Assembly: GCA_007131435.1 (NCBI GenBank)
Contig: SLQM01000210.1
Span: 1-34,169, forward strand
Reading direction: 5' to 3'
DNA from: Syntrophomonadaceae bacterium
GTDB lineage: Bacteria; Bacillota; Dethiobacteria; DTU022
Length of the DNA: 34,169 nucleotides
Shown: in pieces, positions 10,367 to 32,735 of the stretch
Numbering within the stretch: position 1 is the stretch's first letter
Layout: every line of letters starts with the position of its first letter
Notes under the pieces: generated by a model
What the model saw: only the letters and a program-made list of their open reading frames with translations
Databases searched by the model: none
Told to the model about the DNA's origin: nothing
Position numbers and translations under genes: made by a program

Positions 10367-10371
10367 CTACT

Positions 10372-11376: not shown

Positions 11377-11390
11377 TAGGGGGTGTTTAA

Positions 11391-14974: not shown

Positions 14975-14977
14975 ACA

Positions 14978-17392
14978 TTATCCCACCGATATGCCATGCT
15001 GGACGGTGCGCCCTATTATTTCATCCTGCACATCTTTACCCAATTCAGAAAAATAGGCGGTATATCCTGCAACACGAACTAGCAGGCCCTTGTATTGTTC
15101 AGGATTATTTTGAGCATCGATTAAAGTCTTTTGGTCTATTACATTAAACTGCACATGGTAAACTCCCAGGCTGCACATGCTTTTTAGAAGGGCCATCAGC
15201 TGGCTTATGCCATTTTCTGTTTGAAGCATGGCCGGTTCAACTTTTAAATTTAACAGGGTTCCCTGCACAAAGCGTCCATGAGGAAGATGGGCTACTGATT
15301 TCAAGACAGAGCCCGGGCCGTTTAAGTCAGTACCACCACTTGGACTTACACCATCAGCCAAAGGCTGCCAAGCTTTTCGTCCTGAAGGGAGCGCTCCCAC
15401 TTCCAGCCCAAATGGGGTATTCCCGGATACAGGCAAGATACCTGGCGTCATCCTGCCATACTTGCCTTCATATTTCTCAATTTCATCTGCTATAAAGGTA
15501 AATACTTCTCCTGCAATATGATCAACAAAGGGATCATCATTACCATACTTGGGAGCTTCCCTGCAGAATTTATGAATTTCTTCATACCCTTCGAAATCTT
15601 TATTTAAGGCGTCAATTAACATATCCATTGCAACTTTGCCAGTTTCAAATACAAGGTACTTTACAGCAGCCAGGCTGTTGACCAGGTCTGCAACACCGAT
15701 TAATATTATTCCGTTCCCCGCGTTATATTTCGCGCCTCCCCAGGCATAATCTAAGGCATTTTCAATACAATCTTTAAAGGTTAAAGAGAGCGCCGGGCAG
15801 GGGCGGCCAAGGCATATTTCATCAATAACATGACTTCCGGCGACTACTGCCTTTACAACATGGGCGAACTGTTTTTTAAATGCGTTAAAAAACTGATCGT
15901 AACTTTTAAATTCATTAACATTTCCTGAATCTGTGCCGATATACTGGCCGCTTTTCTGACTACGGCCATTAAACATGGTAAGCTCTACAACTGACCCCAG
16001 GTTAATATCTGCAAGGGCGGTATACTGCCGCATGCGCCCTTCCAGGTTGGTTTCAACACATCCGCAGGGATTCCAATTGTAGGCTTCTTTTAACGGCACG
16101 CCCTTATTCATCAGCATAATTATTCCCTGGTCATCATTATGAAAGGCTGGAAAACCGGTGCCAAGGCTGATTAGTTCAACAATTTTGCGCAAGAAGCTAT
16201 TCGGATTTTTTGCCAGGCTGTAACGGACTGACAGAGAAGGCTGGTAGAGCTGCACATCCATGGTAGACTGCAAGATCATGTAGGAAAGTTCATTAACGGC
16301 ATCTTTACCCGTATTGTCTACACCGCCAACACAGACATTTTGGAACATGGGGTAACCTGCAGCAAACTCGGCTGTCAGGGCATCCTGGAAAAGACAGGGT
16401 TCGCTAAATTTAACCCAGAGACAATTTAACAGTTCCTGCGCCTCATCTTTAGTGATCTTCCCATCCATGATATCTGCATGGAAGTAAGGAAAAAGGTATT
16501 GATCCATCCTGCCGGGGTTATAGCTGGCAGCATTTTGTTCCATAAAGATTGCAACCTGGTAGAAGTAGACGGACTGAAGGGCTTCGTGAAAAGTCCTGGC
16601 AGGGTTTAAGGGCACATGGCTGCATACTTCGGCTATACTCAACAGCTCTTTTTTACGCTTCTGATCATGTTCAATGGCTGCAAGTTTTTTTGCTTCTTCG
16701 GCATACCTTTCTGCCAACCTCACGATCCCCTCAGCTGCCAGGGTTAACGACTGCAGGTAACAATCTTTTTCATAATCTCCAGGTCTTGTAATATCAAGGT
16801 TTGCCCTTCTGCGGTTAATAGTATCAATAATACCCTTAATACCGGCTTTTAGCAGCCATTCATAACCCGCTGTTGTTTCTCCCCAACCGCGCACTGCTTT
16901 GCGATCGATATACACAACTCCGTTGTCACGAAGAGTTTTTGTGTTATCAGGTATCTGGGCCAGCCATTCTTCATAATTTGAGCGTCCCTGCCAGTACGGT
17001 TTTATTTCACTAAGAAATAAGTCGCGATCATCCGGTTTGAGGTAAAAGGGATCGTAAGGCCTGCTGCTGATTGTATCTAACTCACGGTCAAGAACTGACC
17101 AGCAGGAATCGGCACAAAGGATTCCTCCCCGGATTTTGCTTCCAGGGCAGCCAACTATCAGTTCATCGTCCCATATTTTAATAGTTTTTTCAAAACACTG
17201 CTTTTTAAAAGCACTTGCTTTTCGGATAACCAGCGGTTTTCCCTCAGATTCTCTAAAACCTTTAGTCAGCAGGTATGCATTTTCAAGATCCATTTCAGGG
17301 CTGGTTTTTAATACCCGTTTCTTTAAACGCTTAATTCTATCAGTGTATGCAGGCATATAATCCTGAGCAGGCTCATTTATGTCATAATCCAT
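14978..17392 (-). CDS. Glycyl radical enzyme, 1,2-eliminase (PFL2/glycerol-dehydratase-like) class, unknown substrate; not HypD-like in its active-site blocks
   Basis: The Gly-radical motif LLVRVAGYTAYF has its Gly at codon 776 (15065-15067). The Cys loop NPCGCVET has Cys445 and Glu447 (16052-16060). The protein is 804 aa, and an AGGGGG RBS lies 7 nt upstream of the ATG at 17392. Where HypD has APGHTV and WDAFCPGR, this protein has RGWGETTAGY and NAASYNPGR. Confidence 0.9.
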   Translation of the reverse strand: MDYDINEPAQDYMPAYTDRIKRLKKRVLKTSPEMDLENAYLLTKGFRESEGKPLVIRKASAFKKQCFEKTIKIWDDELIVGCPGSKIRGGILCADSCWSVLDRELDTISSRPYDPFYLKPDDRDLFLSEIKPYWQGRSNYEEWLAQIPDNTKTLRDNGVVYIDRKAVRGWGETTAGYEWLLKAGIKGIIDTINRRRANLDITRPGDYEKDCYLQSLTLAAEGIVRLAERYAEEAKKLAAIEHDQKRKKELLSIAEVCSHVPLNPARTFHEALQSVYFYQVAIFMEQNAASYNPGRMDQYLFPYFHADIMDGKITKDEAQELLNCLWVKFSEPCLFQDALTAEFAAGYPMFQNVCVGGVDNTGKDAVNELSYMILQSTMDVQLYQPSLSVRYSLAKNPNSFLRKIVELISLGTGFPAFHNDDQGIIMLMNKGVPLKEAYNWNPCGCVETNLEGRMRQYTALADINLGSVVELTMFNGRSQKSGQYIGTDSGNVNEFKSYDQFFNAFKKQFAHVVKAVVAGSHVIDEICLGRPCPALSLTFKDCIENALDYAWGGAKYNAGNGIILIGVADLVNSLAAVKYLVFETGKVAMDMLIDALNKDFEGYEEIHKFCREAPKYGNDDPFVDHIAGEVFTFIADEIEKYEGKYGRMTPGILPVSGNTPFGLEVGALPSGRKAWQPLADGVSPSGGTDLNGPGSVLKSVAHLPHGRFVQGTLLNLKVEPAMLQTENGISQLMALLKSMCSLGVYHVQFNVIDQKTLIDAQNNPEQYKGLLVRVAGYTAYFSELGKDVQDEIIGRTVQHGISVG

Positions 17393-17494: not shown

Positions 17495-18391
17495 GTGAAA
17501 AAAGGCCTTATTTTTAACATTCAACGATACTCACTGCATGACGGTCCCGGAATCAGGACCACGGTATTTTTTAAAGGCTGCCCTTTAAAGTGCCAATGGT
17601 GTCAAAACCCTGAAGGAATTGATACTGACGTTGAACTGTTCAGGCACAATCAAAAATGTATTCACTGTGGTTCTTGTATGACTCATTGCCATGAAAAAGC
17701 AATTGACCTTACTGACAGCGGCCCCCTGGTAAACCGTCAGGCCTGTAATCGCTGCATGGAGTGTGTGGATATCTGCCCCACTGGCACGTTAGAAATGGCG
17801 GGAAAAGAATACAGTGTAAATGAAGTTGTTCAGGCAGCGTTAAAGGATATTCTTATCTATGAAGAATCGGGGGGAGGAGTAACCATATCTGGTGGTGAAC
17901 CCCTCCTGCAATATGAATTTCTATTAGAACTTCTGTTAGCTCTAAAAAAGCTGAATATCCACACTGCCATTGAAACAAGCGGCTACTGCAGTTGGGAAAA
18001 AATAAAAGAGATCAGCAAGATTACTGATTTGATATATTATGATTTAAAATTAATAGATGATAATTCCAGCAGGATATTTACCGGAGCCTCAAATATTTTA
18101 ATTATGGATAACCTGGAACGTTTAGTAATAAGCGGAGCTAATATCGTGGTTAGAATGCCGCTTATACCATCCGTTAATGACACCCGGGATAATATTGAAC
18201 ATACTGCCGGGTATTTAAGTTCAATCGGTGTTAAATGCATTGAACTTCTTCCTTACCACAATTTAGGCAGTGTAAAGTATGAAGGGCTTGATTTAGAATG
18301 CCCTTTTAATTACAGGCCCAACAGTGAACTTATTCGTCAAGCTTCTGTAATATTCGAAGCGAATGGAATATATATAACAAGCGAGGGATAA
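17495..18391 (+). CDS. Glycyl-radical enzyme activating enzyme (radical SAM), HypD activase
   Basis: The N-terminus reads IFNIQRYSLHDGPGIRTTVFFKGCPLKCQWCQNPE (CX3CX2C). Two extra Cys clusters (CIHCGSCMTHC, CNRCMECVDICP) and the GGGVTISGGEPL block are present. The start is GTG, after GAGGTG. Confidence 0.92.
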   Translation: MKKGLIFNIQRYSLHDGPGIRTTVFFKGCPLKCQWCQNPEGIDTDVELFRHNQKCIHCGSCMTHCHEKAIDLTDSGPLVNRQACNRCMECVDICPTGTLEMAGKEYSVNEVVQAALKDILIYEESGGGVTISGGEPLLQYEFLLELLLALKKLNIHTAIETSGYCSWEKIKEISKITDLIYYDLKLIDDNSSRIFTGASNILIMDNLERLVISGANIVVRMPLIPSVNDTRDNIEHTAGYLSSIGVKCIELLPYHNLGSVKYEGLDLECPFNYRPNSELIRQASVIFEANGIYITSEG

Positions 18392-18394
18392 CTT

Positions 18395-20776
18395 ATGGTC
18401 GTTGCTGAGAGAGGTATAACTGAGCGAGTAAAAAAATTACGGCATCAGAGCGAGAATACTGCCCCATCAATTACAATAGAAAGAGCCCAACTGGTAACGG
18501 AAGCATACCGTGAAAATGCTGATTCAGTTTCTGCGCCCGTATTGCGTGCACTAACTTTTAAGCATCTAATGGAGAATAAAGCTGTTTGCATCAATGAAGG
18601 GGAATTGATCGTGGGCGAGAGGGGACCAAAACCTCAATCTGCACCAACTTATCCCGAACTGTGCTGCCATACTGTAGAAGATCTTGATTTAATAAGTAAG
18701 CGAAATAAAATTGCTTTCCAGGTAAGCGATGAAGTGAAGAATGCGCAGGAAAAAGAGATAATTCCTTTCTGGAAAGGGCGTTCCATGCGTGATAAAATTT
18801 TTAAACGCATGAATAACAATTGGCATGCCTGTTATAAAGCTGGAATATTTACCGAATTCATGGAACAACGGGCGCCAGGCCATACAGTGGCCGGGGATAA
18901 AATATACAAGCTGGGCATGCTCGATATTAAAGAAGAGATCAATGCTGAGCTTCTGGCTATGGATTATACAAACGACCAGGATGCTTATGCCAAAGCTGAG
19001 CAGCTTAAGGCTATGGCAATTTGTGCTGATGCATTAATCACCTATGCCCGCAGACATGCCGTAAGGGCAAGAGAAATGGCCGCTGTCGAAAGTTCTGCAG
19101 AAAGAACAAGGGAACTTGAGCAGATTGCTACAATTTGTGATCGCGTTCCCGCTGCTGCACCGGAAACTTTATGGGAAGCATTGCAGTATTACTGGTTTGT
19201 TCACCTGGGGGTAATAACTGAGCTTAATACGTGGGATGCATTTTGCCCTGGCAGGCTTGATCAACATTTAGAGCCCTTCTATCAGAAAGATTTAAAAGAA
19301 AGCAGGCTCACAACATATTCTGCTAAAGAGCTGTTGCAGTGTTTTTGGATTAAATTCAATAACCAGCCGGCGCCACCTAAAGTTGGCATTACTTTGAAAG
19401 AGAGCGGTACTTACACGGATTTTGCTAATATCAACCTTGGCGGATTACGCCCCGATGGTAAAGACGGCGCAAATGATGTCACTTACCTTCTCCTTGAAGT
19501 TATTGATGAAATGCGACTCTTGCAGCCCAGCTCCAATATCCAGGTCAGCAAAAAGAACCCCGATCTGTTTATTAAGAAAGCAGCGCATATTATCCGGAAG
19601 GGTTGGGGGCAACCATCTGTTTTTAATGTAGAAGCAGTAATTATTGAGCTATTACGGCAGGGTAAAACACTTGTTGACGCCCGCAGCGGTGGAACCAGCG
19701 GTTGTGTTGAAACTGGTGCGTTCGGTAAAGAAAGTTATATACTAACCGGTTATTTTAACCTGACCAAGGTTTTGGAAATCACCCTGAATAACGGGGTTAA
19801 CCCGGCAGATGGAACTCTGCTTGGCATTGAAACAGGCAACCCAAGATATTTTAAAAACTTTGATCAACTGCTATCAGCGTTTGAGAGGCAGTTGAACTAC
19901 TTTATTAATATTAAAATAGAAGGAAATCAAATTATTGAAAAGCTTTATGCAGATCAAATGCCTGCGCCTTTCCTATCGTTAATCATTGATGATTGCATAA
20001 AAAATGCCAGGGATTACAATGCAGGCGGAGCGCGCTACAACACAAACTATATCCAGGGTGTGGGTATAGGAACAATTACAGATTGCCTCTCAGCAATTAA
20101 ATATCATATTTATGACCAAAAAAGGTTTAACTGGGATGAAATGATGTACTGTTTAGATAAGAACTTTGCTGCTAACGAAGTTATGCGGCAGATTTTATTA
20201 AATAAAACACCCCGTTACGGTAATGATGATGATTATGCAGATTCTATTATGCAGCAGGTATTTAAAATCTTTCATGGACTTATTGATGGGCGCAAATCAA
20301 TTAGGGGCGGCACTTATCGTATAAATATGCTTCCTACTACCTGCCATGTTTATTTTGGGTCGGTTATTGGAGCAACTCCGGACGGTAGATTTGCAGGCAA
20401 ACCACTTTCTGAAGGTATTTCACCGGTCCAGGGGGCCGACTTTAAAGGACCTACTGCTGTAATAAAATCTGCTTCGAAGATGGACCACCTTCTAACCGGC
20501 GGTACACTGCTTAACCTTAAATTTTCTCCCGCCGTTCTTGAAGGGGAGAAAGGGCTTAACAGCCTTGTGCATTTAATCAGGAGTTACTTCAGGATGGATG
20601 GACATCATATCCAGTTTAACGTGGTAGATGCTGATACTTTAAGAAAGGCACAAAATAATCCTGAAGAGTACCGCAACTTAATTGTGAGGGTAGCCGGTTA
20701 CAGTGATTATTTCAGCAATCTTAACGAGGAGCTACAAAATGAAATAATAGCTAGAACTGCTCATGCTAAATTGTAG
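18395..20776 (+). CDS. hypD: trans-4-hydroxy-L-proline dehydratase (glycyl radical enzyme HypD)
   Basis: Long blocks match my recollection of Clostridioides difficile HypD (FTEFMEQRAPGHTV, NTWDAFCPGRLDQH, FNNQPAPPKVGITLKESGTYTDFANI, GGTSGCVETGAFGKESYILTGY, MLPTTCHVYFG, DGHHIQFNV). The Gly-radical motif LIVRVAGYSDYF has its Gly at codon 768. Cys437 and Glu439 are offset by +3 from the C. difficile numbering. Confidence 0.92.
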   Translation: MVVAERGITERVKKLRHQSENTAPSITIERAQLVTEAYRENADSVSAPVLRALTFKHLMENKAVCINEGELIVGERGPKPQSAPTYPELCCHTVEDLDLISKRNKIAFQVSDEVKNAQEKEIIPFWKGRSMRDKIFKRMNNNWHACYKAGIFTEFMEQRAPGHTVAGDKIYKLGMLDIKEEINAELLAMDYTNDQDAYAKAEQLKAMAICADALITYARRHAVRAREMAAVESSAERTRELEQIATICDRVPAAAPETLWEALQYYWFVHLGVITELNTWDAFCPGRLDQHLEPFYQKDLKESRLTTYSAKELLQCFWIKFNNQPAPPKVGITLKESGTYTDFANINLGGLRPDGKDGANDVTYLLLEVIDEMRLLQPSSNIQVSKKNPDLFIKKAAHIIRKGWGQPSVFNVEAVIIELLRQGKTLVDARSGGTSGCVETGAFGKESYILTGYFNLTKVLEITLNNGVNPADGTLLGIETGNPRYFKNFDQLLSAFERQLNYFINIKIEGNQIIEKLYADQMPAPFLSLIIDDCIKNARDYNAGGARYNTNYIQGVGIGTITDCLSAIKYHIYDQKRFNWDEMMYCLDKNFAANEVMRQILLNKTPRYGNDDDYADSIMQQVFKIFHGLIDGRKSIRGGTYRINMLPTTCHVYFGSVIGATPDGRFAGKPLSEGISPVQGADFKGPTAVIKSASKMDHLLTGGTLLNLKFSPAVLEGEKGLNSLVHLIRSYFRMDGHHIQFNVVDADTLRKAQNNPEEYRNLIVRVAGYSDYFSNLNEELQNEIIARTAHAKL

Positions 20777-20895: not shown

Positions 20896-20971
20896 AGGGG
20901 AGTAGCTCAACTGGCAGAGCGGCGGTCTCCAAAACCGTAGGCTGCGGGTTCAAGTCCTGTCTCCCCTGCCA
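20896..20971 (+). tRNA. trnW: tRNA-Trp (anticodon CCA), with a genome-encoded 3' CCA
   Basis: The hand-folded cloverleaf has acceptor AGGGGAG/CTCCCCT, D arm GCTC-AACTGGCA-GAGC and anticodon stem GCGGT/ACCGT with loop CTCCAAA. The T arm is GCGGG-TTCAAGT-CCTGT. Discriminator G and CCA occupy 20968-20971, giving 76 nt in total. Confidence 0.9.
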
Positions 20972-21277: not shown

Positions 21278-22468
21278 ATGTCTTCTACAAAAAATATTCT
21301 TGAATTGACAGAAAAACACAGTGCGAGAAATTATATGCCTTTGCCGGTTGTGCTTTCGCATGGTCAAGGTGTTTGGGTTACAGATCCTGAGGGCAACCGC
21401 TACATGGACATGCTTAGCGCTTATTCCGCAATGAATTTCGGCCACCGTCATCCAAGGATTATTGCAGCGCTCAAAAAACAAGCTGACAAAATGACTGTTA
21501 CTTCCAGGGCTTTTCACAACGACCAACTGGGAGAGTTTTGTCAAAAATTATCTGACATGACCGGTAAAGAAATGGTTTTACCAATGAATACAGGCGCTGA
21601 AGCGGTAGAGACTGCTATCAAAGCGGTTCGACGTTGGGCTTACAGGAATAAAGGCATACCAGCAGATCAGGCAGAAATTATTGTTTGTAAAGGTAACTTC
21701 CATGGCAGAACTATTACAATTGTTTCCTTCACTTCAGATACAGCTTACAAGTCTGATTTTGGGCCATTTACACCCGGCTTTAAATTAATAGAATATGGCA
21801 ATATTGAGGCCCTGAGAGAAGCAATTACTCCAAACACAGCAGCATTTTTAGTGGAACCGATCCAGGGCGAGGGAGGTATTATTATTCCTCCGAAAGGCTA
21901 TTTGAAAGAGGCTTATACTTTATGTCACGATAATAATGTAATTTTTATGGCTGACGAAATACAGACCGGATTCGGCCGTACAGGTAAAATGTTTGCCTGT
22001 GACTGGGAAGATGTAACACCTGATATTTATATTCTCGGCAAAGCGTTAGGTGGTGGCGTAATACCAATTTCAGCTGTAACTGCTGACGAGGAAATACTGG
22101 GTGTTTTTGAGCCTGGTTCCCATGGTTCGACATTTGGAGGCAATCCTTTGGCCTGTGCAGTTTCGATTGAAGCAATGAATGTTTTGGTAGAAGAAAAACT
22201 TGTTGAAAAATCTGCCAAACTTGGCTCCTATTTTGTCGAACAGTTAAAAACTATAAATAACCCTGTTATAACTGAAGTCAGGGGCAAAGGCCTGATGGTG
22301 GGAATAGAACTAAAAGGAAAAGCCAGGCCCTATTGTGAAAAATTAATGGAATTAGGCGTCCTGGCCAAAGAAACTCATGAAAATGTTATTCGACTTGCAC
22401 CACCACTTGTTATTAGCAGTGAAGATTTGGAAAAAGCCCTTACCTTAATTAGGGCGGTTTTTGAATGA
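21278..22468 (+). CDS. rocD: Ornithine--oxo-acid aminotransferase (ornithine delta-aminotransferase)
   Basis: The protein is near-collinear with my recollection of Bacillus subtilis RocD ([95 protein letters not shown]). An AAGGGAG RBS is present. Confidence 0.93.
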
Positions 22469-22502
22469 ACTAAACTAAATTAAAAAAATATTACAAAATG
22501 TA

Positions 22503-22531
22503 TTGACAAGTCTAAATAGATGATCAATAAT
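22503..22531 (+). promoter_or_regulatory. Candidate promoter for the structured intergenic RNA
   Basis: TTGACA (22503-22508), a 17-nt spacer and AATAAT (22526-22531). The predicted start site lies a few nt before the 5' arm of the closing helix at 22539. Confidence 0.45.
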
Positions 22532-22538
22532 ACCTTTA

Positions 22539-22825
22539 CCAGGTTCCGAGAGACTGGACTACAAGCCGGATTTGCATCAACGGGTAAACCGAAGTGGAGG
22601 AAGGGCTTACCGAAATCCGTGTAAGGATTATCCCGGGTGGCAAATCGCAAAAGGGCAAGATTTGGAAGGACCCCAGGGTTTGGAAAAATTGAGCCCGGAT
22701 GAACGGGGATTAGTAGCGATCTGGAGGTTGAGTGAAGGCCATCCGGAGGTGGTGGTGGAAGCTCAGCTGTAGATGGAGTCGTGAAGAAGTTCCGTTGGCG
22801 AGTGGAAAGGCCTGTTGGAACCTGG
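22539..22825 (+). ncRNA. Unassigned structured RNA of about 290 nt (G-rich and GGA-rich, closed by a terminal helix); class unknown and strand tentative
   Basis: CCAGGTTCC (22539-22547) pairs with GGAACCTGG (22817-22825). Internal helices include CGGATTT (22567-22573) with AAATCCG (22613-22619), and CAAATC (22641-22646) with GATTTG (22659-22664). A third, GGTTGAG (22726-22732) with CTCAGCT (22762-22768), contains G.U pairs that would be C.A mismatches on the minus strand. The segment is GC-richer than the flanking AT-rich spacer, and no credible ORF lies inside it. Confidence 0.45.
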
Positions 22826-22868
22826 ATTTATTATGTACAATTATAAATGCTTTATTAATAGCGGTTAA

Positions 22869-22897
22869 TTGACACTGAATACCTGTCAGTGTATAAT
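22869..22897 (+). promoter_or_regulatory. Consensus sigma-A promoter of the NuoEF-like/dehydrogenase operon, with an embedded inverted repeat (candidate operator)
   Basis: TTGACA (22869-22874), exactly 17 nt, then TATAAT (22892-22897). The arms ACACTGA (22872-22878) and TCAGTGT (22886-22892) form a perfect 7-bp inverted repeat separated by 7 nt, overlapping both hexamers. Confidence 0.75.
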
Positions 22898-22973
22898 TTT
22901 AAAGGTGTGAAATTGCTATCTATATTAAATAACAGATGACGGTTGACTCCTAAAAAACTGACGGGAACTGGTA

Positions 22974-25358
22974 ATGGCAAAAACAGAACTTATTGAATCA
23001 ATAATCAGTCGGCACAATTTTGACACTGCAAACCTGATTATGATTTTACAGGATACGCAGGAAGTTTTTAACTACTTACCACCGGATGCTTTAGAATATA
23101 TTTCAAACAGATTGGAAATCCCCAAGTCACAAATATATTCAATAGCTACATTTTTTAAGTCATTCTCCTTAACACCCCGGGGAAAGCACAAAATAGATAT
23201 ATGTGAAGGCACTGCCTGTCATATCAGGGGTGCCTCTCTTTTGTTAAGCTCCGTTACGGAGGAGTTTAACATTAAAGAGGGGGAAACTTCCCCCGATGGT
23301 TTGTTTTCCTTAAATTCTGTGCACTGTGTGGGCGCTTGCGCTATGGGTCCTGTAGCAATCATTGATGGCGAGTATCATGGTAATATAACTTCTTCCAGCC
23401 TGGTTAAAAAAATAAAACAATGCTGCGCCGAAGAACATTGCGTTGAAAATAAATCGAAGCAATTATCCAGCCAGGAAGTGGTACCAGAAAACAGGGATCT
23501 GCTAACCGGGGTAAAAAGTTTTGATGACTATAACAAGCTTAGAGAAAAGTTGACAGCAAAGTATAAAGCAATAAATAACAGGATCCTGGTTTGTACCGGA
23601 ACAGGTTGCCTGGCAAAGGGAAGTATCAAGGTGGCTCATGCCCTGACCAGGGAACTTGATAGTAAAAATTTTAATATTCCGGTTCATATCGGGGTAAAAA
23701 AAGTTGGCTGTCACGGATTATGTGAGCAGGGACCGCTAGTAATCATACATCCTGAAAATATTTGCTACACAAAGGTCAATGAAAAAGATGTTAAAGAAAT
23801 TATTGAAGAAACTTACATTAACAAAACAGTTGTTGAAAGACTCTTATATCGAGATTCAGCCGATTCACCGGCGATTGAAAAATACACTGATATACCATTT
23901 TATTCCAGCCAGGTGAAAATTGCCCTACGTAACGTGGGGGAAATTGATCCTGCAAACATTGCTGACTACATAGCTTGTGGAGGATACGGCGCTCTAAAAA
24001 AAGTTTTACAGGATATGCAACCCGAAGCCGTAATTGACAAAATTGACAAGTCCGGCCTGAGGGGCAGGGGTGGAGGCGGTTTCCCGGCAGGTAAAAAATG
24101 GCGAACTGCTGCTGCAGTAAATTCTGATCTAAGATATGTGATCTGCAACGGTGATGAGGGAGACCCCGGTGCCTTTATGGATTGCAGCATAATGGAAGGT
24201 GATCCACATGCTGTTCTGGAAGGTATGGCAATATGTGCATACGCCATCAGGGCAGAGCAGGGATACATATATGTTCGTGAAGAATACCCCCGTGCATTAA
24301 TCCGCATGCAGCAGGCAATTGAACAGGCACTGGAAAGTGGTTTCCTGGGCGACAATCTATTTGGCACAGATTTTTCTTTTAAAGTAAAGATAAATAGGGG
24401 TGCAGGAGCTTTTGTTTGCGGTGAATCAACTGCCTTAATGCAATCTGTAGAGGGTAAAGTAGGAGAGCCAAGGGCAAAATATATCAGGTCAGCAGAGCGG
24501 GGGCTTTACGATAAGCCTACAGTGCTTAATAATGTTGAAACATTTGCAAATGTCCCCATTATAATAGATAAAGGTGTACAGTGGTTTAGAAGCTACGGAT
24601 CTGACAACAGTAAAGGAACCAAAGTTTTTTCTGTTGTCGGTAAAGTAAAAAATACCGGCCTTGTTGAAGTGCCGATGGGCACAACGTTAAGAAATATTAT
24701 TTATGATATTTGTGGAGGCATTATTGATGGTGGAAGATTTAAGGCCGTGCAAACAGGAGGCCCTTCAGGAGGCTGCCTGCCGGCTGAAAAACTTGATCTA
24801 CCTGTTGATTTCGACAGCCTGACCCGGGAAGGTTCGATGATGGGTTCCGGCGGGATGATCGTTATGGACGAACACACCTGCATGGTAGATGTGGCTAGAT
24901 ATTTTACTGATTTTTTGACCAGTGAATCCTGTGGCAAATGCGCCGCCTGTCGACTTGGGCTTGAACAAGTCCATGCTATCCTCGATCGTATCTGCAAGGG
25001 AAAAGGTGTTGCAGGTGACCTTGATAATATAGAAAAACTACTGCACACATTACAGCACGGATCTTTATGCGGCCTGGGAAAATCGGCGCCCAATCCGGTT
25101 CGGAGCACATTGGACCATTTTAAAGATGAATACATAGCACATATTGAAGAGAAAAAATGTCCTGCCGGTGTATGTCGCGAGTTAATTTCTTATAAAATAG
25201 AAGATAGCTGTACAGGCTGCCGGAGATGTGCCAGATCATGCCCCCAGGGTGCAATTAGTGGCGAGAAGAAATTGTTGCATATTATAGACCAGGATTTATG
25301 CAACCGCTGCGGCATCTGCATAACTCTGTGTAATTTTGATGCTATAACAGTTGATTAA
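22974..25358 (+). CDS. Fused NuoE-like/NuoF-like NADH-binding flavoprotein (HydC+HydB-like, BfuBC-type) with a C-terminal 2x[4Fe-4S] ferredoxin domain
   Basis: A NuoE-type [2Fe-2S] domain is present (CEGTACHIRGA ... CVGACAMGP), followed by a second thioredoxin-like [2Fe-2S] domain (VCTGTGCLAKG ... GCHGLCEQGP). NuoF FMN and NADH motifs follow (GLRGRGGGGFPAGKKW, CNGDEGDPGAFMD), then the N3 cluster motif ESCGKCAACRLG. The C-terminus carries CTGCRRCARSCPQGAI and CNRCGICITLCNFDAI. Confidence 0.88.
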   Translation: MAKTELIESIISRHNFDTANLIMILQDTQEVFNYLPPDALEYISNRLEIPKSQIYSIATFFKSFSLTPRGKHKIDICEGTACHIRGASLLLSSVTEEFNIKEGETSPDGLFSLNSVHCVGACAMGPVAIIDGEYHGNITSSSLVKKIKQCCAEEHCVENKSKQLSSQEVVPENRDLLTGVKSFDDYNKLREKLTAKYKAINNRILVCTGTGCLAKGSIKVAHALTRELDSKNFNIPVHIGVKKVGCHGLCEQGPLVIIHPENICYTKVNEKDVKEIIEETYINKTVVERLLYRDSADSPAIEKYTDIPFYSSQVKIALRNVGEIDPANIADYIACGGYGALKKVLQDMQPEAVIDKIDKSGLRGRGGGGFPAGKKWRTAAAVNSDLRYVICNGDEGDPGAFMDCSIMEGDPHAVLEGMAICAYAIRAEQGYIYVREEYPRALIRMQQAIEQALESGFLGDNLFGTDFSFKVKINRGAGAFVCGESTALMQSVEGKVGEPRAKYIRSAERGLYDKPTVLNNVETFANVPIIIDKGVQWFRSYGSDNSKGTKVFSVVGKVKNTGLVEVPMGTTLRNIIYDICGGIIDGGRFKAVQTGGPSGGCLPAEKLDLPVDFDSLTREGSMMGSGGMIVMDEHTCMVDVARYFTDFLTSESCGKCAACRLGLEQVHAILDRICKGKGVAGDLDNIEKLLHTLQHGSLCGLGKSAPNPVRSTLDHFKDEYIAHIEEKKCPAGVCRELISYKIEDSCTGCRRCARSCPQGAISGEKKLLHIIDQDLCNRCGICITLCNFDAITVD

Positions 25359-25377
25359 TAAATTGGAAGGACCACAT

Positions 25378-28300
25378 ATGACCGAATATATAACTCTAAG
25401 TGTTGACGGGCGTATCCTAAAAGCTGAGAAGGGAACAATGCTGCTCAATATTTTAAACGATAATGAAATATTTATTCCCCAATTATGCAACCATCCGTCA
25501 CTACCACCGAGCGGATCATGCAGGTTGTGCTCAGTAGAAATTACAAAGGATGATTGGAATGGAAATTCAAAAATAGTAACATCATGTCTCTACCCTGCTG
25601 AAGATAAGCTGAAAATATCAACTCGTTCAAAAGATGTGCTTGAGTTACGAAGAAGCCTCCTCGGGCTATACATGGCTCGCTGCCCGGATTCAGAGACAAT
25701 TAAGGACCTGGCCCGCTTAGAGGGAGTAGACGAAACTCCGTATACCTTAAAAGAGGGTGGAGATAATTGCATTCTTTGCGGTCTCTGTACAAGGGTATGC
25801 CAGGATAGCGGCCCGGGAGCTATTTCGACACTGAGCCGGGGCATAGAAAAAATTGTGGGACCAGATATAACTACAGTTGCTGATCAATGTACAGGTTGTC
25901 GGGCATGTACTCATATATGCCCTACCGATGCAATACCTTTTACCCAGGAAAACAAAGTTTATGAAATATGGAACCGCAAATTTGAAATTCCCGTTTGCTC
26001 TGTTAACCCTGATAATTGCCGGGGTTGCGGGATTTGTGAAGAAGTATGCCCTTACAGCATACCACGTGTAACACTATACAAAACAGGTTTGAGCACTGCA
26101 ACTATTTCCGAAACTGCCTGCACAGGTTGTGGCATTTGTGCCGGCAGCTGCCCGACCGGCACAATAGAACAAAGCATCACGGACAACCTCGATCATTATT
26201 ATGATTTGTTTTTTAAGACCGACTTATCCGGTAAAACGGTTGTTTTCAGTTGTCCCAGGTCTCCAATGCCCGTTGAAGAGGAGACAGTTGTTCAAGTCAG
26301 CTGTATCGGGAATGTTGATCTTTCCATGATCCTTTACCCGCTGGCTGCAGGGGCCAGGGCAGTAGGGTTAATGTGCAGGGATAAACTTAGCTGCCCCTAT
26401 ATGCTTGGGGGAAATCTTGGAGAAGAAAAAATAGGCGTTGCTAAAGAACTGCTCTCCTACTGCGGGCTTGATGAGGATAGAATAGCCCTGCTTAACCCAG
26501 ACTATGGCCAGGATGGTCCAAAAAAGGCGTGGAATGATTTTCTGAAAAGAGCGCAGCTTTTATCTCCAACTGTGATTGATATATTTCCTGTCAGTAACAA
26601 TCAAGAGCGAGGACTGGATTTTGCTTTAAGTATTGTAAATTGGTTAAAAAGCGGTAAGGAATCTGAACCGGTTATACCGGATGAACTTAAAGTACTTTTT
26701 ACCAAGGACGATTTGCAGAGCACAGCTATTCTATACCTCGATAATCTTCCTGAAATACATCTGATGCTTCCTTTATTAACAAATGAAAAGCTTGTTTACG
26801 ATTATTTAAGATTCGCATCAGATGCTTTAAAACAGCTGGACATAAAGGTCAAACCTGCTTGCAGTGAAAAGGAAGTTGAAGAAAGCGAAATAACCAAAGT
26901 TATCGCTTTTAATCCTTATCCCGAAGGAAAAATGGAAAGCGGTAAAAAATATATTTCAATAAATGAACTGGCTGGAGTTAAAGACAAAGTAAAAGAAACA
27001 ATCCGCTTTTCTTTTAGCCTGGATCATGTCGAACGTAAAAAATTGATTGATCAGTTAATTGCCAGCGACGATGTGCTGTTTGTAAACAATCTTAGCCTTT
27101 ACCTGCAGTATGGACTGCTAATGCGTGAGGGTGCGTGGCAGCAAACACATAAAAAGTACCTTGTGCCAAAGTTTGCCTCAGCAACTAAAGATTTCAAGGG
27201 TGAAGAAATCAGAATTGGTAAGTCACTGCGCATAGATAATCATCCAATCCTTCCTGATATGGCAAAAAAAGAACTTTCTTTTTCATTTAACGGTTCACAT
27301 TTCAGCGCATGGGAAGGCGAAGTAATTACCTCTGCTCTATATGCAGCGGGTGTAACAGTTTTTGGCCATCATCACCGCGATGGCGGTGCCCAGGGAATAT
27401 ACTGCGTGAACGGGCAATGTTCCCAATGCATGGTAATTGCTGATGGTAAACCGGTCAAAGGATGTATGACGCCGGTAATTGAAGGCATGCAAGTTGAAAG
27501 CGTTGAGGGTTTGCCAAGGTTAAGAGACGATAGCCCTTTGCAAAATTTTAAACCGTTACCGGAAGAATACGAAGTAGAGGTCCTGATCATCGGCGGAGGA
27601 CCTGCCGGTATAAGTGCCGCAATTGAGTTGGGAACTGCAGGCGCTGATGTATTGGTGGTTGATGATAAGCAGGAACTTGGTGGAAAGCTGAGTCTACAGA
27701 CCCACAACTTTTTCGGTTCTGTAAAAGACTGTTATGCAGGAGATCGCGGAATTGATATCGGCTATACACTGGCAGATAAAATGCTTAAACAGCCAACTGT
27801 TGAAACCTGGCTCAATGCAACGGTAGTTGGTGTCTACAGTGATGGAAAATTCGGTGTTTCTATAAACGGATCTTACAGACTCGTAAAAGCTGCAAAAATA
27901 CTCTTCAGTACAGGAGCGCGTGAGAAAACGCTGTCAATACCTGGGTGCGACCTTCCCGGAGTGTACGGCGCAGGAGCTTTTCAAACTCTTGTGAACAGGG
28001 ATCTGGTTAAATGTGCTGAAAAGCTTTTTATAATTGGCGGCGGCAATGTCGGTTTAATCGGCGCTTATCATGCCTTGCAGGCAGGGATAGATGTTGTCGG
28101 ACTGGTTGAAGCCCTTCCCCAGTGCGGCGGCTACAAAGTGCACGAAGATAAAATTAAACGTTTAGGCGTTCCTGTTATGACATCACACACAGTTTTGCGA
28201 ATTGAGGGCAAAGAAAAGGCTGAAAGAGTTATTATTGCTGCTGTAGACAAAAACTTTATTCCTCAGCAGGGAACAGAAAGAATATTTGATGTTGACACGG

Positions 28301-29322: not shown

Positions 29323-30487
29323 CAAAAATATATACGATGTGATTATCATAGGCTGTGGAAGTGTAGGTAACCCGACAGCATATCAGTTAGCTGAAGCGGG
29401 ATTAAGTGTTTTGGCAATAGACAGGCGCTCATCAGCAGGACAGGGTGATAATAAGACCGCGATTGGCGGTGTAAGGGCCACACACTCAGACCCAGGGAAA
29501 ATATCAACCTGCCTTTATAGTATTGACATATTCTCCTCATGGAATGAAAAATACGGGTTTGATATAGGATGGAAGCCTGGCGGTTATTGCTTCCCTGTAT
29601 ATGACCAGGATATTGAAAGTACATTAAAATCTCTGATACCCTACCAGAAAGAATGTGGGATGAAAATAGATTGGGTAGATGCTGAAACAATTAAAAATAT
29701 TATCCCCGGGATAAATGAAAATGATCTCCGCGGTGGAACTTATTCACCGGATGACGGCCAGGTTTCATCGATCCTGGCACCAATCGCATTTCAAAAGGAA
29801 GCTGAAAAGAACGGTGCAGTTTATCTATTTAATGAGCGGGTAACAGGTTATGAGCGTAAGGGGGATAGAATCGTAGGAGTTATTACCGACAAGGGTAAAT
29901 ATTATGCAGAATGGGTGGTTCTGGCTGCCGGATCAGACGCCGCAGAACATGGGCCGATGCTTGGAATAGATATACCGGTTACACCTGATGCGCATGAAGC
30001 TGGAATTTCTGCCCCTGTTGAACATTTTTTAGCTCCGCTGATTGTTGATCTGAGGGCAGGTGTGGATGGTAAAACCTCTAACTTTTATTTTGGGCAAAAC
30101 AAGGAAGGCCAGATAATATTTTGTTATACACCAAAAGATCTGTTTATCGGTACAGACAGGGAATCATTATCTGAATTTTTACCAATTCTTGCCCGACGCA
30201 TGGTTTCATTGATTCCGAGGTTAAAAAACCTTTTAATCAGAAGAATATGGCGCGGATGCTACCCGATGAGCCCGGATGGGGTTCCTATAATAGATTATGC
30301 ACCAGGTATCGAGGGATTAATCTTAGCAGTGGGAATGTGTGGACAGGGCTTAATGCTCGGCCCTGGTGTGGGCAAGAATATAACATCAATGATAACCAGC
30401 GGCTGTTCCTGCATCAGTTCTGAAGCACAAAACTGTTTTAGGTACGACAGGGATTTCTATCAAAAAGAGACTGAAACCCTCAAGTAG
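29312..30487 (+). CDS. FAD-dependent amine/imino-acid oxidoreductase (DAO family; sarcosine-oxidase-beta / L-proline-dehydrogenase-beta / D-hydroxyproline-dehydrogenase-like catalytic subunit)
   Basis: The N-terminal dinucleotide fold YDVIIIGCGSVGNPTAYQLAEAGLSVLAIDR and a C-terminal GMCGQGLMLGPGVG block are present. I chose the ATG at 29312, 6 nt after GGGGAGG (29299-29305). It overlaps the upstream stop by 11 nt, which suggests translational coupling. The ORF-track start is 29291. Confidence 0.85.
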   Translation: MPVNKNIYDVIIIGCGSVGNPTAYQLAEAGLSVLAIDRRSSAGQGDNKTAIGGVRATHSDPGKISTCLYSIDIFSSWNEKYGFDIGWKPGGYCFPVYDQDIESTLKSLIPYQKECGMKIDWVDAETIKNIIPGINENDLRGGTYSPDDGQVSSILAPIAFQKEAEKNGAVYLFNERVTGYERKGDRIVGVITDKGKYYAEWVVLAAGSDAAEHGPMLGIDIPVTPDAHEAGISAPVEHFLAPLIVDLRAGVDGKTSNFYFGQNKEGQIIFCYTPKDLFIGTDRESLSEFLPILARRMVSLIPRLKNLLIRRIWRGCYPMSPDGVPIIDYAPGIEGLILAVGMCGQGLMLGPGVGKNITSMITSGCSCISSEAQNCFRYDRDFYQKETETLK

Positions 30488-32678: not shown

Positions 32679-32690
32679 TTTGAAAATTAC

Positions 32691-32699
32691 TGGTATAAT
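32691..32699 (+). promoter_or_regulatory. Extended -10 element (TGgTATAAT) upstream of the ROK kinase gene
   Basis: TGGTATAAT at 32691-32699 matches TGnTATAAT, 37 nt before the ATG at 32736. The -35 element is poor. Confidence 0.4.
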
Positions 32700-32735
32700 C
32701 TTATAAAAGCCCATTTCCAAAAAGGAGAGCGGCAG

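What the first reader, a model, noticed from the sequence alone, without database searches (positions are those of the whole stretch)
22503..22897. Unassigned G-rich structured RNA of about 290 nt, with its own promoter, between rocD and the dehydrogenase operon
The 505-bp spacer is not simple AT-rich filler. Bases 22539-22825 are much more GC-rich than the flanks. On the + strand they are strongly G-rich and C-poor, with 16-17 GGA trinucleotides and three GGAGG motifs by my hand count.

The segment is bracketed by a perfect 9-bp terminal helix, CCAGGTTCC/GGAACCTGG, extendable to 11 bp with G.U pairs. Several internal helices can be drawn, and alternative pairings exist around ATCCCGGG (22630-22637), GAGCCCGGAT (22691-22700) and CGGGGAT (22704-22710).

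A TTGACA-17-AATAAT promoter sits just upstream. A separate consensus promoter for the downstream operon sits just downstream. The element could therefore be an independent sRNA, a cis leader or riboswitch read through from the first promoter, or a protein-sequestering (GGA-loop) RNA.

No protein regulator is encoded anywhere in the window, which makes an RNA-based control element for proline/hydroxyproline genes attractive. It did not match the conserved cores I remember for T-box, glycine, cobalamin, lysine, M-box, SRP, 6S, RNase P or tmRNA.
Basis: seen in the sequence. Interest (0 to 1): 0.7.

Follow-up and report, generated by a model that had tools for sequence, protein, structure and literature searches.

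The report
New structured RNA beside proline genes
A roughly 290-nucleotide RNA gene with its own promoter sits inside a proline/hydroxyproline/ornithine gene cluster of uncultured soda-lake bacteria; it folds into a complex shape supported by compensatory mutations and matches no known RNA family, and its function, probably regulatory, is still unknown.

Summary
Window 22539-22826 (+) is a GC-rich, G-rich island whose ends form an 11-bp helix. It folds far better than shuffles (z = -5.1). It lies 7 nt downstream of a TTGACA-17-AATAAT promoter.

Full-length homologues occur in 16 distinct lineages (59-99% identical) of uncultured 'Syntrophomonadaceae'/Bacillota MAGs and metagenome contigs. All share a four-way-junction fold. 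On the MAFFT alignment, 92.7% of pair cells are canonical, against 23-49% for slid controls. Twenty-nine of 70 pairs show compensatory double changes. Five invariant G·U pairs fix the strand as +.

There is no Rfam 15 hit, no conserved ORF, and no copy in viral contigs.

The RNA is always co-oriented with the HypD/rocD/(aldehyde dehydrogenase)/NuoEF-FeS-DAO/proC island. It is absent from the same NuoEF operon in four other genomic contexts.

A second, near-consensus extended -10 promoter separates it from the NuoEF gene in all 12 lineages where that gene follows and the spacer is held. A U-rich tail follows the closing helix in all 16.

Best reading: an independently transcribed, new-family structured ncRNA, probably a regulator of the island centred on pyrroline-5-carboxylate (P5C). 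A read-through riboswitch is the main rival. The GGA/CsrA-type idea is not supported.

The parts
22503..22531 (+). Promoter of the RNA gene: TTGACA (22503-22508), 17-nt spacer, AATAAT (22526-22531). The predicted start, about A22538, is 0-1 nt before the closing helix.
   Evidence: scores it 11 of 12. TTGACA is invariant in 16 of 16 lineages. The -10 element and its 7-nt distance to P1 are conserved, as are extra positions (GTATTGACAAaTC ... GATCAATAAT).
22539..22826 (+). The structured RNA itself (about 288 nt), a four-way-junction fold with helices P1 to P11.
   Evidence: MFE z = -5.1. Consensus structure. Covariation counts. CM R1 scores 226-302 bits in every homologue. No Rfam hit.
22539..22555 (+). 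5' strand of closing helix P1 (22539-22549) plus P1a/P1b (AG 22551-22552, CT 22554-22555). The block CCAGGTTCCGAGAGACTGG is nearly invariant.
   Evidence: P1 has one compensatory G-C to A-U change (L022) and U-A/U.G alternation. The rest is invariant, so the P1a/P1b pairing is inferred only.
22809..22825 (+). 3' strand of P1b/P1a/P1 (GG 22809-22810, CT 22812-22813, TTGGAACCTGG 22815-22825), within the invariant block AAGGCCTGTTGG.ACCTGG.
22559..22568 (+). 5' strands of P2 (22559-22562) and P2a (22565-22568). They pair with 22802-22805 and 22796-22799 and close the four-way junction.
   Evidence: helix 2: 6 of 8 pairs show changes on both sides and 90% of cells are paired.
22569..22646 (+). Variable 5' arm: P3 (22569-22575 with 22640-22646) carrying P4, P5 (22595-22598 with 22616-22619) and a small GG/CC hairpin.
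   Evidence: P3 has 5 of 7 pairs with double changes and P5 has 3 of 4.
22658..22691 (+). Second arm: P6 (22658-22664 with 22686-22691) capped by P7 (22669-22672 with 22677-22680). The conserved junction CUGAAAGAG precedes it (GCAAAAGGGCA in this window, 22647-22657).
   Evidence: P6 has 4 of 6 pairs and P7 has 3 of 4 pairs with double changes.
22704..22794 (+). Long, highly conserved 3' arm. From base to tip:
- P8 (22704-22707 with 22791-22794).
- An AGUA/GAA internal loop (22708-22715 and 22783-22790) that resembles an S-turn.
- P9 (22716-22722 with 22775-22782).
- P10, GGUUGAG/CUCAGCU (22726-22732 with 22762-22768).
- A GA-rich 5x5 internal loop.
- P11, GCCAUC/GGUGGY (22738-22745 with 22750-22756).
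   Evidence: P8 and P9 covary. P10 is invariant. P11 shows a compensatory C-G to U-A change in L042. The S-turn reading rests on sequence resemblance only.
22826..22838 (+). U-rich tail (AUUUAUUAUGUAC) directly after P1; the probable 3' end or terminator tract.
   Evidence: the 12 nt after P1 average 65% T in 16 of 16 lineages, against 38% in the next 48 nt.
22869..22897 (+). Separate promoter of the downstream NuoEF-like operon: TTGACA-17-TATAAT, here with the palindrome ACACTGA-N7-TCAGTGT in the spacer. It is not part of the RNA but defines its 3' boundary.
   Evidence: scores it 12 of 12. The equivalent site in the other 11 NuoEF-linked lineages is TTGACA-N18-TATAAT, usually preceded by TG. 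RNA-less operons L040 and L041 carry a similar site, TTGACA-N18-TATACT.

Best explanation
Window 22539-22826 (+) is the gene for a previously undescribed, highly structured non-coding RNA of about 290 nt.

Shown:
- It has a dedicated sigma-70-type promoter whose predicted start coincides with the first base of the closing helix.
- It folds into a four-way junction: P1/P2 closing stem, two variable arms (P3-P5 and P6-P7), and a long, almost invariant arm (P8-P11). The long arm carries an AGUA/GAA internal loop and a GA-rich internal loop.
- The fold is maintained by compensatory mutations across 16 lineages.
- The RNA is always co-oriented with, and embedded in, a gene island whose enzymes all make or consume pyrroline-5-carboxylate (P5C). 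These are HypD, RocD, an aldehyde dehydrogenase, a NuoEF/FeS-flavoprotein/DAO complex, and ProC.

Inferred:
- Transcription ends at the U-rich tract that directly follows the 3' strand of P1. The RNA is therefore a discrete, stand-alone transcript, and the downstream operon is driven by its own strong promoter.
- The RNA acts as a regulator of the island. Its conserved core would bind a pathway metabolite or a protein and so affect expression in trans.
- This arrangement is comparable to EutX/Rli55, a ligand-sensing ncRNA embedded in the eut locus. It differs from a classical 5'-UTR riboswitch.

The partner and the target remain unknown.
For: Structure and selection:
- z = -5.1 on the + strand against -2.4 on the - strand.
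- 18 sequences from 16 lineages, 59-99% identical (median 67%), with 89 invariant columns of 301. The flanking spacer does not align.
- On the MAFFT alignment, 92.7% of pair cells are canonical against 23-49% when partners are slid. Twenty-nine of 70 pairs have changes on both sides, against 8-13 when slid. None of 500 shuffles reaches the observed value on any measure.
- The CM-based alignment gives 31 covarying pairs, including a C-G to U-A swap in the otherwise invariant P11.
- Invariant G.U pairs at five positions fix the strand.

Independent transcription unit:
- The promoter is conserved in 16 of 16 lineages at a fixed 7 nt from P1.
- A U-rich tail follows P1 in 16 of 16.
- A near-consensus promoter (TTGACA, 17-18 nt, TATAAT, mostly with an upstream TG) lies between the RNA and the NuoEF gene in all 12 NuoEF-linked lineages whose spacer is held. 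The same operon carries a similar promoter in L040 and L041, where the RNA is absent.
- In L038 a canonical hairpin plus T7 terminator separates the RNA from the proC promoter.
- The spacer between the RNA and the second promoter varies from about 31 to 105 nt and is not conserved, so no expression platform is evident.

Link to the island:
- The RNA is present in every locus where rocD, HypD or the aldehyde dehydrogenase precedes NuoEF or proC, including three rearranged versions.
- It is absent from four NuoEF operons elsewhere (L012, L015/16, L040, L041).
- Pfam and NCBIfam find no transcription factor in the 34-kb window.
Against: - No transcript data exist. The 5' and 3' ends, and the RNA's existence as a discrete species, are predictions.
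- P1 encloses about 265 nt, which is not a conventional terminator hairpin, and the tail is only moderately U-rich. Substantial read-through into the operon is possible.
- All lineages are fairly close relatives with conserved synteny. Constant orientation and position may partly reflect inheritance rather than function.
- No partner is identified. No ligand was tested, no RNA-binding protein is encoded nearby, and duplex predictions to the 24 translation-initiation regions in the window are no better than background.
- The trans-acting regulatory role is inference by analogy only.
Confidence: 0.5

Rival explanations
1. Cis-acting riboswitch or leader. The RNA is a large metabolite-sensing aptamer (candidate ligands: P5C, proline, a hydroxyproline isomer, ornithine). 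Its closing helix P1 together with the U-tract forms the terminator. Ligand-dependent formation of P1 would set how much transcription from the upstream promoter reads into the NuoEF-FeS-DAO operon or proC, adding to the output of the second promoter.
For: - The RNA is always co-oriented with, and 90-250 nt upstream of, a pathway gene: NuoEF in 12 lineages and proC in L028 and L038.
- Its architecture is aptamer-like, with an invariant core and junctions and covarying peripheral helices.
- A U-tract abuts P1 in 16 of 16 lineages.
- Except in L038, there is no other terminator between the RNA and the downstream gene.
- No protein regulator is encoded in the window.
Against: - A near-consensus promoter lies between the RNA and the NuoEF gene in all 12 lineages where NuoEF follows and the spacer is held. 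The same operon has a similar promoter where the RNA is absent. This is not how known riboswitch-controlled operons are built.
- L038 has a canonical terminator after the RNA.
- No conserved alternative (anti-terminator) pairing was found.
- At 290 nt it is larger than almost all known aptamers.
Confidence: 0.27
2. A structural, ribonucleoprotein or catalytic RNA whose job is unrelated to the neighbouring genes, like OLE, raiA, ROOL or GOLLD. Its position in the island would be inherited synteny in a narrow lineage.
For: - Its size, four-way junction and long invariant arm with protein-site-like internal loops resemble large orphan ncRNAs.
- Both strands of P1 are invariant, which suggests a bound partner.
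- All carriers belong to one group of uncultured haloalkaliphilic Bacillota.
- No base-pairing target was found in the window.
Against: - The RNA stays in the island through three independent rearrangements: an aldehyde dehydrogenase inserted upstream, the NuoEF-DAO genes missing, and rocD missing.
- It is missing from the same operon in other contexts.
- No candidate partner protein co-occurs in the loci examined.
Confidence: 0.18
3. A CsrB/RsmZ-type sponge that titrates a GGA-binding protein through many GGA loops.
For: The window copy has 17 GGA against 9.9 +/- 2.5 expected.
Against: - GGA counts vary from 7 to 17 among homologues, and GGAGG is not enriched.
- The conserved fold is a junctioned structure, not repeated GGA-loop hairpins.
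- No CsrA-like gene is in the window.
Confidence: 0.03
4. Not an RNA at all: a decayed coding remnant, a MITE with terminal inverted repeats, or a DNA-level operator pair.
For: - Mechanical ORFs of 56-66 aa exist, and one assembly called a 67-aa gene in the L014 copy.
- The element is bracketed by a 9-bp inverted repeat.
Against: - There are stops in all frames in several homologues, indels are not multiples of three, and Pfam finds nothing.
- Compensatory changes occur in 29-31 pairs, and invariant G.U pairs would be A-C mismatches on the other strand.
- Each locus has a single copy at a syntenic site, and viral contigs have none.
Confidence: 0.02

Closest known systems
raiA motif RNA (Rfam; PMC10861870) and other large orphan ncRNAs of Bacillota (OLE, ROOL, GOLLD)
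   Same: An independently transcribed, highly structured ncRNA of 200 nt or more. It has multi-stem junctions, invariant internal loops and strong covariation, its biochemical function is unknown, and it is found in anaerobic or extremophilic Bacillota.
   Different: There is no sequence or structure match to any of these Rfam models. The distribution detected so far is much narrower, one group of soda-lake MAGs. It is tightly tied to one metabolic island. It lacks a separate terminator hairpin, and its closing helix abuts the U-tract.
EutX/Rli55 (ligand-sensing ncRNA inside the eut locus that sequesters the ANTAR regulator EutV; PMC5821096, PMC5449094)
   Same: A stand-alone ncRNA with its own promoter, embedded in and co-oriented with a catabolic gene cluster, and proposed to couple a metabolite signal to expression of that cluster.
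   Different: EutX contains a recognisable AdoCbl riboswitch and ANTAR-binding hairpins. Here no known aptamer is present and no ANTAR or other RNA-binding regulator is encoded in the window. The analogy concerns arrangement only.
Large cis-acting riboswitches (cobalamin, lysine, T-box, M-box, glmS)
   Same: Conserved junction core with covarying peripheral helices, a closing P1 helix, an AGUA/GAA internal loop that resembles the S-turn/loop E motif (a resemblance from my own recall of lysine riboswitches and T-box Stem I, not tested), and a position upstream of amino-acid-metabolism genes.
   Different: No model matches even at E<=10. An independent strong promoter lies between the RNA and the regulated genes. 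No terminator/anti-terminator alternative was detected. There is no T-box bulge or specifier loop: the triplet before GAA is base-paired and covaries.
CsrB/RsmZ family sponges
   Same: G-rich, with many GGA triplets in the window copy.
   Different: GGA enrichment is not conserved (7-17 copies). The fold is not a series of GGA-loop hairpins.

Membership tests
Any Rfam 15 family (including T-box, cobalamin, lysine, glycine, M-box, SRP, 6S, RNase P, tmRNA, raiA, OLE, ROOL, GOLLD, HEARO) | Covariance-model score at or above the family's gathering threshold | tested here: not met
   In one search the whole window gave only tRNA-Trp. In one search, positions 22400-23000 at E<=10 gave only chance hits of 8-20 bits against gathering scores of 50-120, and none lay on the element's core in a meaningful way.
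Structured functional RNA (generic) | Conserved secondary structure maintained by compensatory substitutions, with strand asymmetry | tested here: met
   One search gives 92.7% of cells paired against 23-49% when slid, 29 pairs with double changes, and 0 of 500 shuffles reaching the observed values. One search gives 31 covarying pairs. Invariant G.U pairs are present. z = -5.1 on + against -2.4 on -.
Cis-regulatory riboswitch | Lies in the 5' UTR of the regulated gene with no intervening promoter | tested here: not met
   A near-consensus promoter (TTGACA, 17-18 nt, TATAAT, mostly with an upstream TG) lies between the RNA and the NuoEF gene in all 12 NuoEF-linked lineages whose spacer is held. 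A promoter-like site also precedes proC in L028 and L038.
Cis-regulatory riboswitch | Expression platform with mutually exclusive structures (terminator/anti-terminator or SD sequestration) | tested here: inconclusive
   P1 followed by a U-rich tail could act as a terminator, but no conserved competing pairing was found. The spacer downstream is unconserved.
Cis-regulatory riboswitch | Direct, specific ligand binding | not testable with these tools
   This needs in-line probing, ITC or DMS-MaP with proline, hydroxyproline isomers, P5C, ornithine and glutamate.
Stand-alone sRNA/ncRNA gene | Own promoter positioned to start at the RNA's 5' end | tested here: met
   TTGACA-17-AATAAT matches 11 of 12. 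It is conserved in 16 of 16 lineages, with the -10 element 7 nt from P1. This is a consensus prediction, not a mapped start site.
Stand-alone sRNA/ncRNA gene | Own terminator and a discrete transcript | tested here: inconclusive
   A U-rich tail follows P1 in 16 of 16 lineages. A canonical hairpin terminator is seen only in L038. No transcriptome data are available.
CsrB/RsmZ-type protein sponge | Many conserved GGA motifs presented in hairpin loops | tested here: not met
   GGA counts are 7-17 across homologues and GGAGG is not above chance. The consensus fold is a four-way junction.
MITE / mobile element with terminal inverted repeats | Multiple dispersed copies at variable insertion sites | tested here: not met
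   There is one copy per window or locus, always at the syntenic site. Viral contigs have none.
Protein-coding gene or pseudogene | Conserved reading frame or similarity to a protein family | tested here: not met
   Several homologues have 5 or more stops in all three + frames, and the longest ORFs shift frame and strand between homologues. Pfam finds nothing for the 66-aa and 56-aa ORFs.
EutX/Rli55-type riboswitch-sRNA | Contains a known aptamer plus binding hairpins for a cluster-encoded ANTAR regulator | tested here: not met
   No known aptamer is present. No ANTAR or other RNA-binding regulator is among the 24 window proteins scanned.

The most novel reading that the evidence does not exclude
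The RNA is the first metabolite-sensing RNA for the proline/hydroxyproline/ornithine node, with P5C, proline or a hydroxyproline isomer as ligand. It would be an unusually large four-way-junction aptamer whose own closing helix, abutting a U-tract, serves as the terminator. Ligand binding would decide whether a discrete ncRNA is released or transcription reads on into a putative electron-bifurcating proline-dehydrogenase operon.
Probability: 0.2. Interest if true: 0.8.

Novelty: categorically new. Interest (0 to 1): 0.62.

Why it matters
Large bacterial ncRNAs (200 nt or more) with complex folds are rare, and several of them (RNase P, tmRNA, glmS, OLE, raiA) have revealed new biochemistry. This one is new at the family level: none of 4227 Rfam models matches it and I found no description in the literature searched.

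It has unusually clean comparative support for so few sequences. It is also tied to one well-defined metabolic node, the P5C-centred island with HypD, RocD, ProC and a NuoEF-linked DAO/FeS flavoprotein complex. That link gives a short, testable list of candidate ligands and phenotypes.

No riboswitch or dedicated ncRNA for proline or hydroxyproline catabolism is known to me. If this RNA regulates the island, it would fill that gap. It would also add an unusual design, with tandem promoters and the closing helix acting as terminator.

Caveat: the label 'categorically new' applies to the RNA family. The broad functional category (regulatory ncRNA or orphan structured RNA) is familiar, and the known distribution is narrow.

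Tried and rejected
1. Known families. Rfam cmscan at gathering score over the whole window and at E<=10 over 22400-23000 gave nothing relevant. A weak SpF51 'hit' at 22431-22476 (-) is just the hairpin at the end of rocD.
2. T-box idea, prompted by AGUA/GAA, GAGAGA and GGUGG. It was rejected. There is no RF00230 signal. The triplet before GAA is paired and covaries. GGUGG is the 3' strand of P11, not a bulge. P1 joins the 5' and 3' ends, unlike a T-box.
3. Coding remnant. There is no conserved frame and no Pfam hit.
4. GGA sponge. GGA enrichment is not conserved.
5. Mobile element or viral origin. Each locus has a single syntenic copy, and a 19-mer scan of viral contigs found 0.
6. Base-pairing sRNA. 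RNAduplex of the RNA against 24 translation-initiation regions of the window gave -19 to -39 kcal/mol, no better than random 60-nt windows (mean -34.8, 5th percentile -44.9). This is a crude test with no accessibility model.
7. Possible switch between CCAUC/GGUGG (P11) and CCAUC/GAUGG. The alternative is not conserved in L006 or L039.
8. Literature. Searches for rocD, proline or hydroxyproline riboswitch candidates, Dethiobacter plus riboswitch, and ornithine aminotransferase plus structured ncRNA found nothing describing this element.
9. Chance matches to the search patterns. Two Spiroplasma loci (L017, L019) and four metagenome loci (L027, L033, L034, L037) are not homologues.
Full report

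Yes.
- The upstream promoter is TTGACA (22503-22508), a 17-nt spacer, and AATAAT (22526-22531). The promoter scan scores it 11 of 12.
- The terminal inverted repeat is CCAGGTTCC (22539-22547) and GGAACCTGG (22817-22825).
- A second, perfect TTGACA-17-TATAAT promoter lies at 22869-22897.
- GC content rises to 0.51-0.55 inside, against 0.28-0.33 in the flanks, and GC skew reaches +0.49.
- The 288-nt core has 103 G and 51 C, 17 GGA and 3 GGAGG.
- Folded as RNA, the + strand gives -111.8 kcal/mol against -88.0 +/- 4.7 for dinucleotide shuffles (z = -5.1, 0 of 200). The - strand gives only z = -2.4.

**2. Known families**

cmscan against all 4227 Rfam 15 models finds only tRNA-Trp (20896-20968) in the window at gathering score. 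At E<=10 on 22400-23000 it finds only chance matches of 8-20 bits. That excludes T-box, cobalamin, lysine, glycine, M-box, SRP, 6S, RNase P, tmRNA, raiA, OLE, ROOL, GOLLD and HEARO as currently modelled.

**3. Gene context**

Pfam and NCBIfam show a large proline/hydroxyproline/ornithine island.

| Window coordinates | Gene |
|---|---|
| 5273-6253 | ornithine cyclodeaminase family |
| 8246-12886 | amino-acid ABC transporter |
| 12994-14019 | proline-racemase family |
| 14006-17392 (-) | second glycyl-radical enzyme with activase |
| 17495-18391 | HypD activase |
| 18395-20776 | HypD (1375 bits against NF043068) |
| 20896-20971 | tRNA-Trp |
| 21278-22468 | rocD |
| 22539-22826 | the element |
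| 22974-25358 | NuoE/NuoF fusion |
| 25351-29322 | 1323-aa Fe-S flavoprotein (Fer2_4, FlpD, Pyr_redox_2, BFD) |
| 29291-30487 | DAO-family oxidoreductase |
| 30651-31457 | proC |
| 31494-32678 | homocitrate-synthase-like |
| 32736-33695 | ROK-family protein |

None of the 24 proteins scanned is a recognisable transcription factor or RNA-binding regulator.

**4. Homologues**

*How they were found.*
- I fetched contigs that encode relatives of the NuoEF protein.
- I ran one exact-pattern scan of GTDB genomes with GGAGGTTGAGNGAANGCCATC.
- I ran one scan of JGI metagenomes with AGGNGGTGGNGGAANCTCAGCTG.
- nhmmer and a covariance model (R1) then confirmed full-length copies.

*What was found.*
- There are 18 sequences from 16 distinct lineages, 59-99% identical (median 67%).
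- All named genome hits are uncultured 'Syntrophomonadaceae' or Bacillota MAGs.
- Two Spiroplasma loci and four metagenome loci were chance pattern matches.
- A viral-contig scan found nothing.

*Caveat.* The two big scans required exact matches in the P10/P11 core. The apparent invariance of that core and the narrow distribution are therefore partly ascertainment effects. L042, found by synteny instead, carries changes there.

**5. Structure and covariation**

RNAalifold gives the same architecture on the MAFFT alignment A3 and on the CM-based alignment A5.
- P1 (window 22539-22549 with 22815-22825) is extended by two short invariant segments.
- P2 and P2a close a four-way junction.
- A variable arm holds P3 to P5 (22569-22646).
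- A second arm holds P6 and P7 (22658-22691).
- A long conserved arm (22704-22794) holds, in order: P8; an AGUA/GAA internal loop; P9; P10 (GGUUGAG/CUCAGCU); a GA-rich 5x5 loop; and P11 (GCCAUC/GGUGGY).

Pair counts on the structure-blind MAFFT alignment:

| Measure | Observed | Control |
|---|---|---|
| Pair cells that are canonical | 92.7% | 85.8 +/- 0.5% column-shuffled; 23-49% with 3' partners slid 1-3 columns |
| Pairs with changes on both sides (of 70) | 29 | 8-13 slid |
| Shuffles reaching the observed value, any of five measures | 0 of 500 | n/a |

- P2, P3, P5, P6, P7, P8 and P9 each carry several compensatory pairs.
- P1 has one G-C to A-U swap (L022).
- P11 has one C-G to U-A swap (L042).
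- Five G.U pairs are invariant. They would be A-C mismatches on the other strand, so the + strand is the functional one.
- P10 and the P1a/P1b segments never vary, so their pairing is neither supported nor contradicted.

No reading frame is conserved. Several homologues have five or more stops in all three forward frames, and the longest ORFs change frame and strand. Pfam finds nothing in the window's 66-aa and 56-aa ORFs. The element is therefore a genuine, selected, structured RNA.

**6. Transcription-unit anatomy**

- *Upstream promoter.* TTGACA is invariant in 16 of 16 lineages. The -10 element ((A/C)ATAAT, once AATACT) is always 7 nt from the first base of P1. Additional positions are conserved (GTATTGACAAaTC ... 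GATCAATAAT).
- *3' tail.* The 12 nt after P1 average 65% T in all 16 lineages, against 38% in the next 48 nt. Consensus: UUUAUUAUGUAC.
- *Second promoter.* In all 12 lineages where the NuoEF gene follows and the spacer is held, TTGACA, 17-18 nt, TATAAT lies between the RNA and the gene, mostly preceded by TG (an extended -10). A very similar promoter (with TATACT) precedes the same operon in L040 and L041, where the RNA is absent.
- *Spacer.* The stretch between the RNA and this promoter is 31-105 nt and does not align.
- *proC-linked copies.* In L038 the RNA is followed by a canonical terminator (CTGCA-TTTACC-TGCAG-T7) and then a promoter-like site for proC. In L028 a promoter-like site for proC (TTGCAC-17-TATAAT) starts about 10 nt after P1.

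Together these features point to a separate transcription unit rather than a 5' UTR. They remain consensus-based predictions.

**7. Association with the island**

The RNA is always on the same strand as its neighbours. Four arrangements occur:
- rocD-RNA-NuoEF: window, L002, L013, L022, L024, L026 and L042. L020 and L023 show rocD-RNA, but the held DNA ends before a NuoEF match can be scored.
- rocD-aldehyde dehydrogenase-RNA-NuoEF: the L006 group, and probably L039.
- HypD-RNA-NuoEF without rocD: L032.
- rocD-RNA-proC without the NuoEF-DAO genes: L028 and L038.

L036 has rocD-RNA followed by no recognisable gene. NuoEF operons of similar identity (64-67%) in other contexts lack the RNA. These are L012 after AFOR/ThiS, L015/16 after BenE, and L040 and L041. 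The RNA thus travels with the P5C-centred island rather than with the NuoEF operon as such. However, all carriers are related, so part of this constancy may be inherited synteny.

**8. What it most likely is**

*Shown.* It is a new-family structured RNA, on the + strand, with a dedicated conserved promoter, a U-rich tract after the closing helix, an independent promoter for the downstream operon, and linkage to the island.

*Inferred.* The RNA is released as a discrete transcript of about 290-300 nt. It regulates the island by binding a metabolite or a protein through its invariant P8-P11 arm and/or P1. This is an arrangement analogous to EutX/Rli55 in eut loci (PMC5821096, PMC5449094). I give this 0.5.

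*Rivals.*
- Read-through riboswitch (0.27). P1 plus the U-tract would form a ligand-controlled terminator feeding extra transcription into the operon. Orientation and aptamer-like conservation favour it. The intervening strong promoter, the L038 terminator and the lack of any conserved alternative pairing count against it.
- RNP or catalytic RNA unrelated to its neighbours (0.18).
- GGA/CsrA-type sponge (0.03). GGA counts vary from 7 to 17 among homologues.
- Non-RNA explanations (0.02).

A crude duplex screen against the 24 translation-initiation regions of the window found nothing above background.

**9. Comparison with known systems**

It works most like the large orphan ncRNAs of Bacillota (raiA, OLE) in size and complexity. 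In genomic logic it resembles EutX/Rli55. It is a member of none of them: every Rfam membership test failed. It meets only one of the defining features of a cis riboswitch, a conserved structured core. The 5'-UTR criterion is not met, the expression platform is inconclusive, and ligand binding is untestable here.

**10. Novelty and interest**

Literature searches found no description of it. As an RNA family it is new. Its broad functional category is probably familiar.

Interest is moderate to high (0.62). Points in favour: it is a rare, large, well-supported structured RNA tied to a defined metabolic node with a short list of testable ligands. Points against: its function is unknown and its known distribution is narrow.

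Noticed in passing
window 22869-22897; equivalent sites in L002, L006, L013, L020, L022, L023, L024, L026, L032, L039, L042, and in RNA-less L040 and L041: The NuoEF-like operon carries a remarkably conserved near-consensus promoter (TTGACA, 17-18 nt, TATAAT, usually with an upstream TG). In the window and in L002 the spacer holds a perfect palindrome, ACACTGA-N7-TCAGTGT. L024 has a different palindrome (TTGAGGATCCCTCAA). This may be an operator for an unidentified repressor.
   Followed up: partly
window 22500-22531 and all homologues: The RNA's promoter is conserved well beyond the two hexamers (GTATTGACAAaTC ... TGATCAATAAT). TATTGA and TCAATA form an inverted repeat spanning the -35 and -10 elements, which could be a protein-binding site that regulates the RNA.
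   Followed up: no
window 22974-30487 (also L002, L006, L012, L015, L040-L042): The operon has three genes: a NuoE/NuoF fusion (794 aa), a 1323-aa protein (2Fe-2S, polyferredoxin, MvhD/FlpD-like, Pyr_redox_2, BFD), and a DAO-family subunit. It looks like a proline- or hydroxyproline-dehydrogenase or HcnABC-type oxidoreductase fused to a module that resembles those of flavin-based electron-bifurcating enzymes. I found no paper describing such an enzyme. The mechanical TTG start of the second ORF at 25351 overlaps the first gene; another assembly calls the start about 27 nt later (L001 2779).
   Followed up: partly
window 12994-17392: A second glycyl-radical enzyme (804 aa, 14978-17392, - strand) with its own activase (14006-14974) lies next to a proline-racemase/hydroxyproline-epimerase family gene. 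It falls below the equivalog cut-offs for HypD (639 against 1100) and CutC (691 against 1050). It may act on another hydroxyproline isomer, for example as an HplG-like C-N lyase (from my own recall, not tested).
   Followed up: no
window 20896-20971; L032 about 385-561: A tRNA-Trp (CCA) gene sits between hypD and rocD inside the catabolic island. L032 has an unannotated stretch in the same place between hypD and the RNA, which I did not scan for tRNA genes.
   Followed up: no
window 22431-22476: A hairpin GCCCT-N10-AGGGC followed by TTTTT overlaps the last codons and the stop codon of rocD. It is a likely rocD terminator, and it is what produced the spurious SpF51 match on the minus strand. 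It is not obviously conserved in other lineages.
   Followed up: partly
L001 (starts at RNA position 63) and L010 (starts at RNA position about 210): Two independent metagenome assemblies break their contigs inside the RNA gene. This may reflect strain microdiversity or coverage effects at the GC-rich element. L011 differs from the window by 2 nt within the RNA.
   Followed up: no
L006/L007/L008/L009 1940-3487; L039 about 5500-7350: In two lineages a 515-aa aldehyde dehydrogenase, possibly a P5C/GSA dehydrogenase like RocA, is inserted between rocD and the RNA. The RNA and its promoter stay immediately upstream of the NuoEF operon's promoter.
   Followed up: partly
window 31494-33695: A homocitrate-synthase-like gene (above the TIGR02660 cut-off) and a ROK-family protein (319 aa, with no room for an N-terminal HTH domain, so probably a kinase) are conserved at the end of the island, also in L028 and L035. 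Their role in proline or hydroxyproline metabolism is unclear.
   Followed up: no
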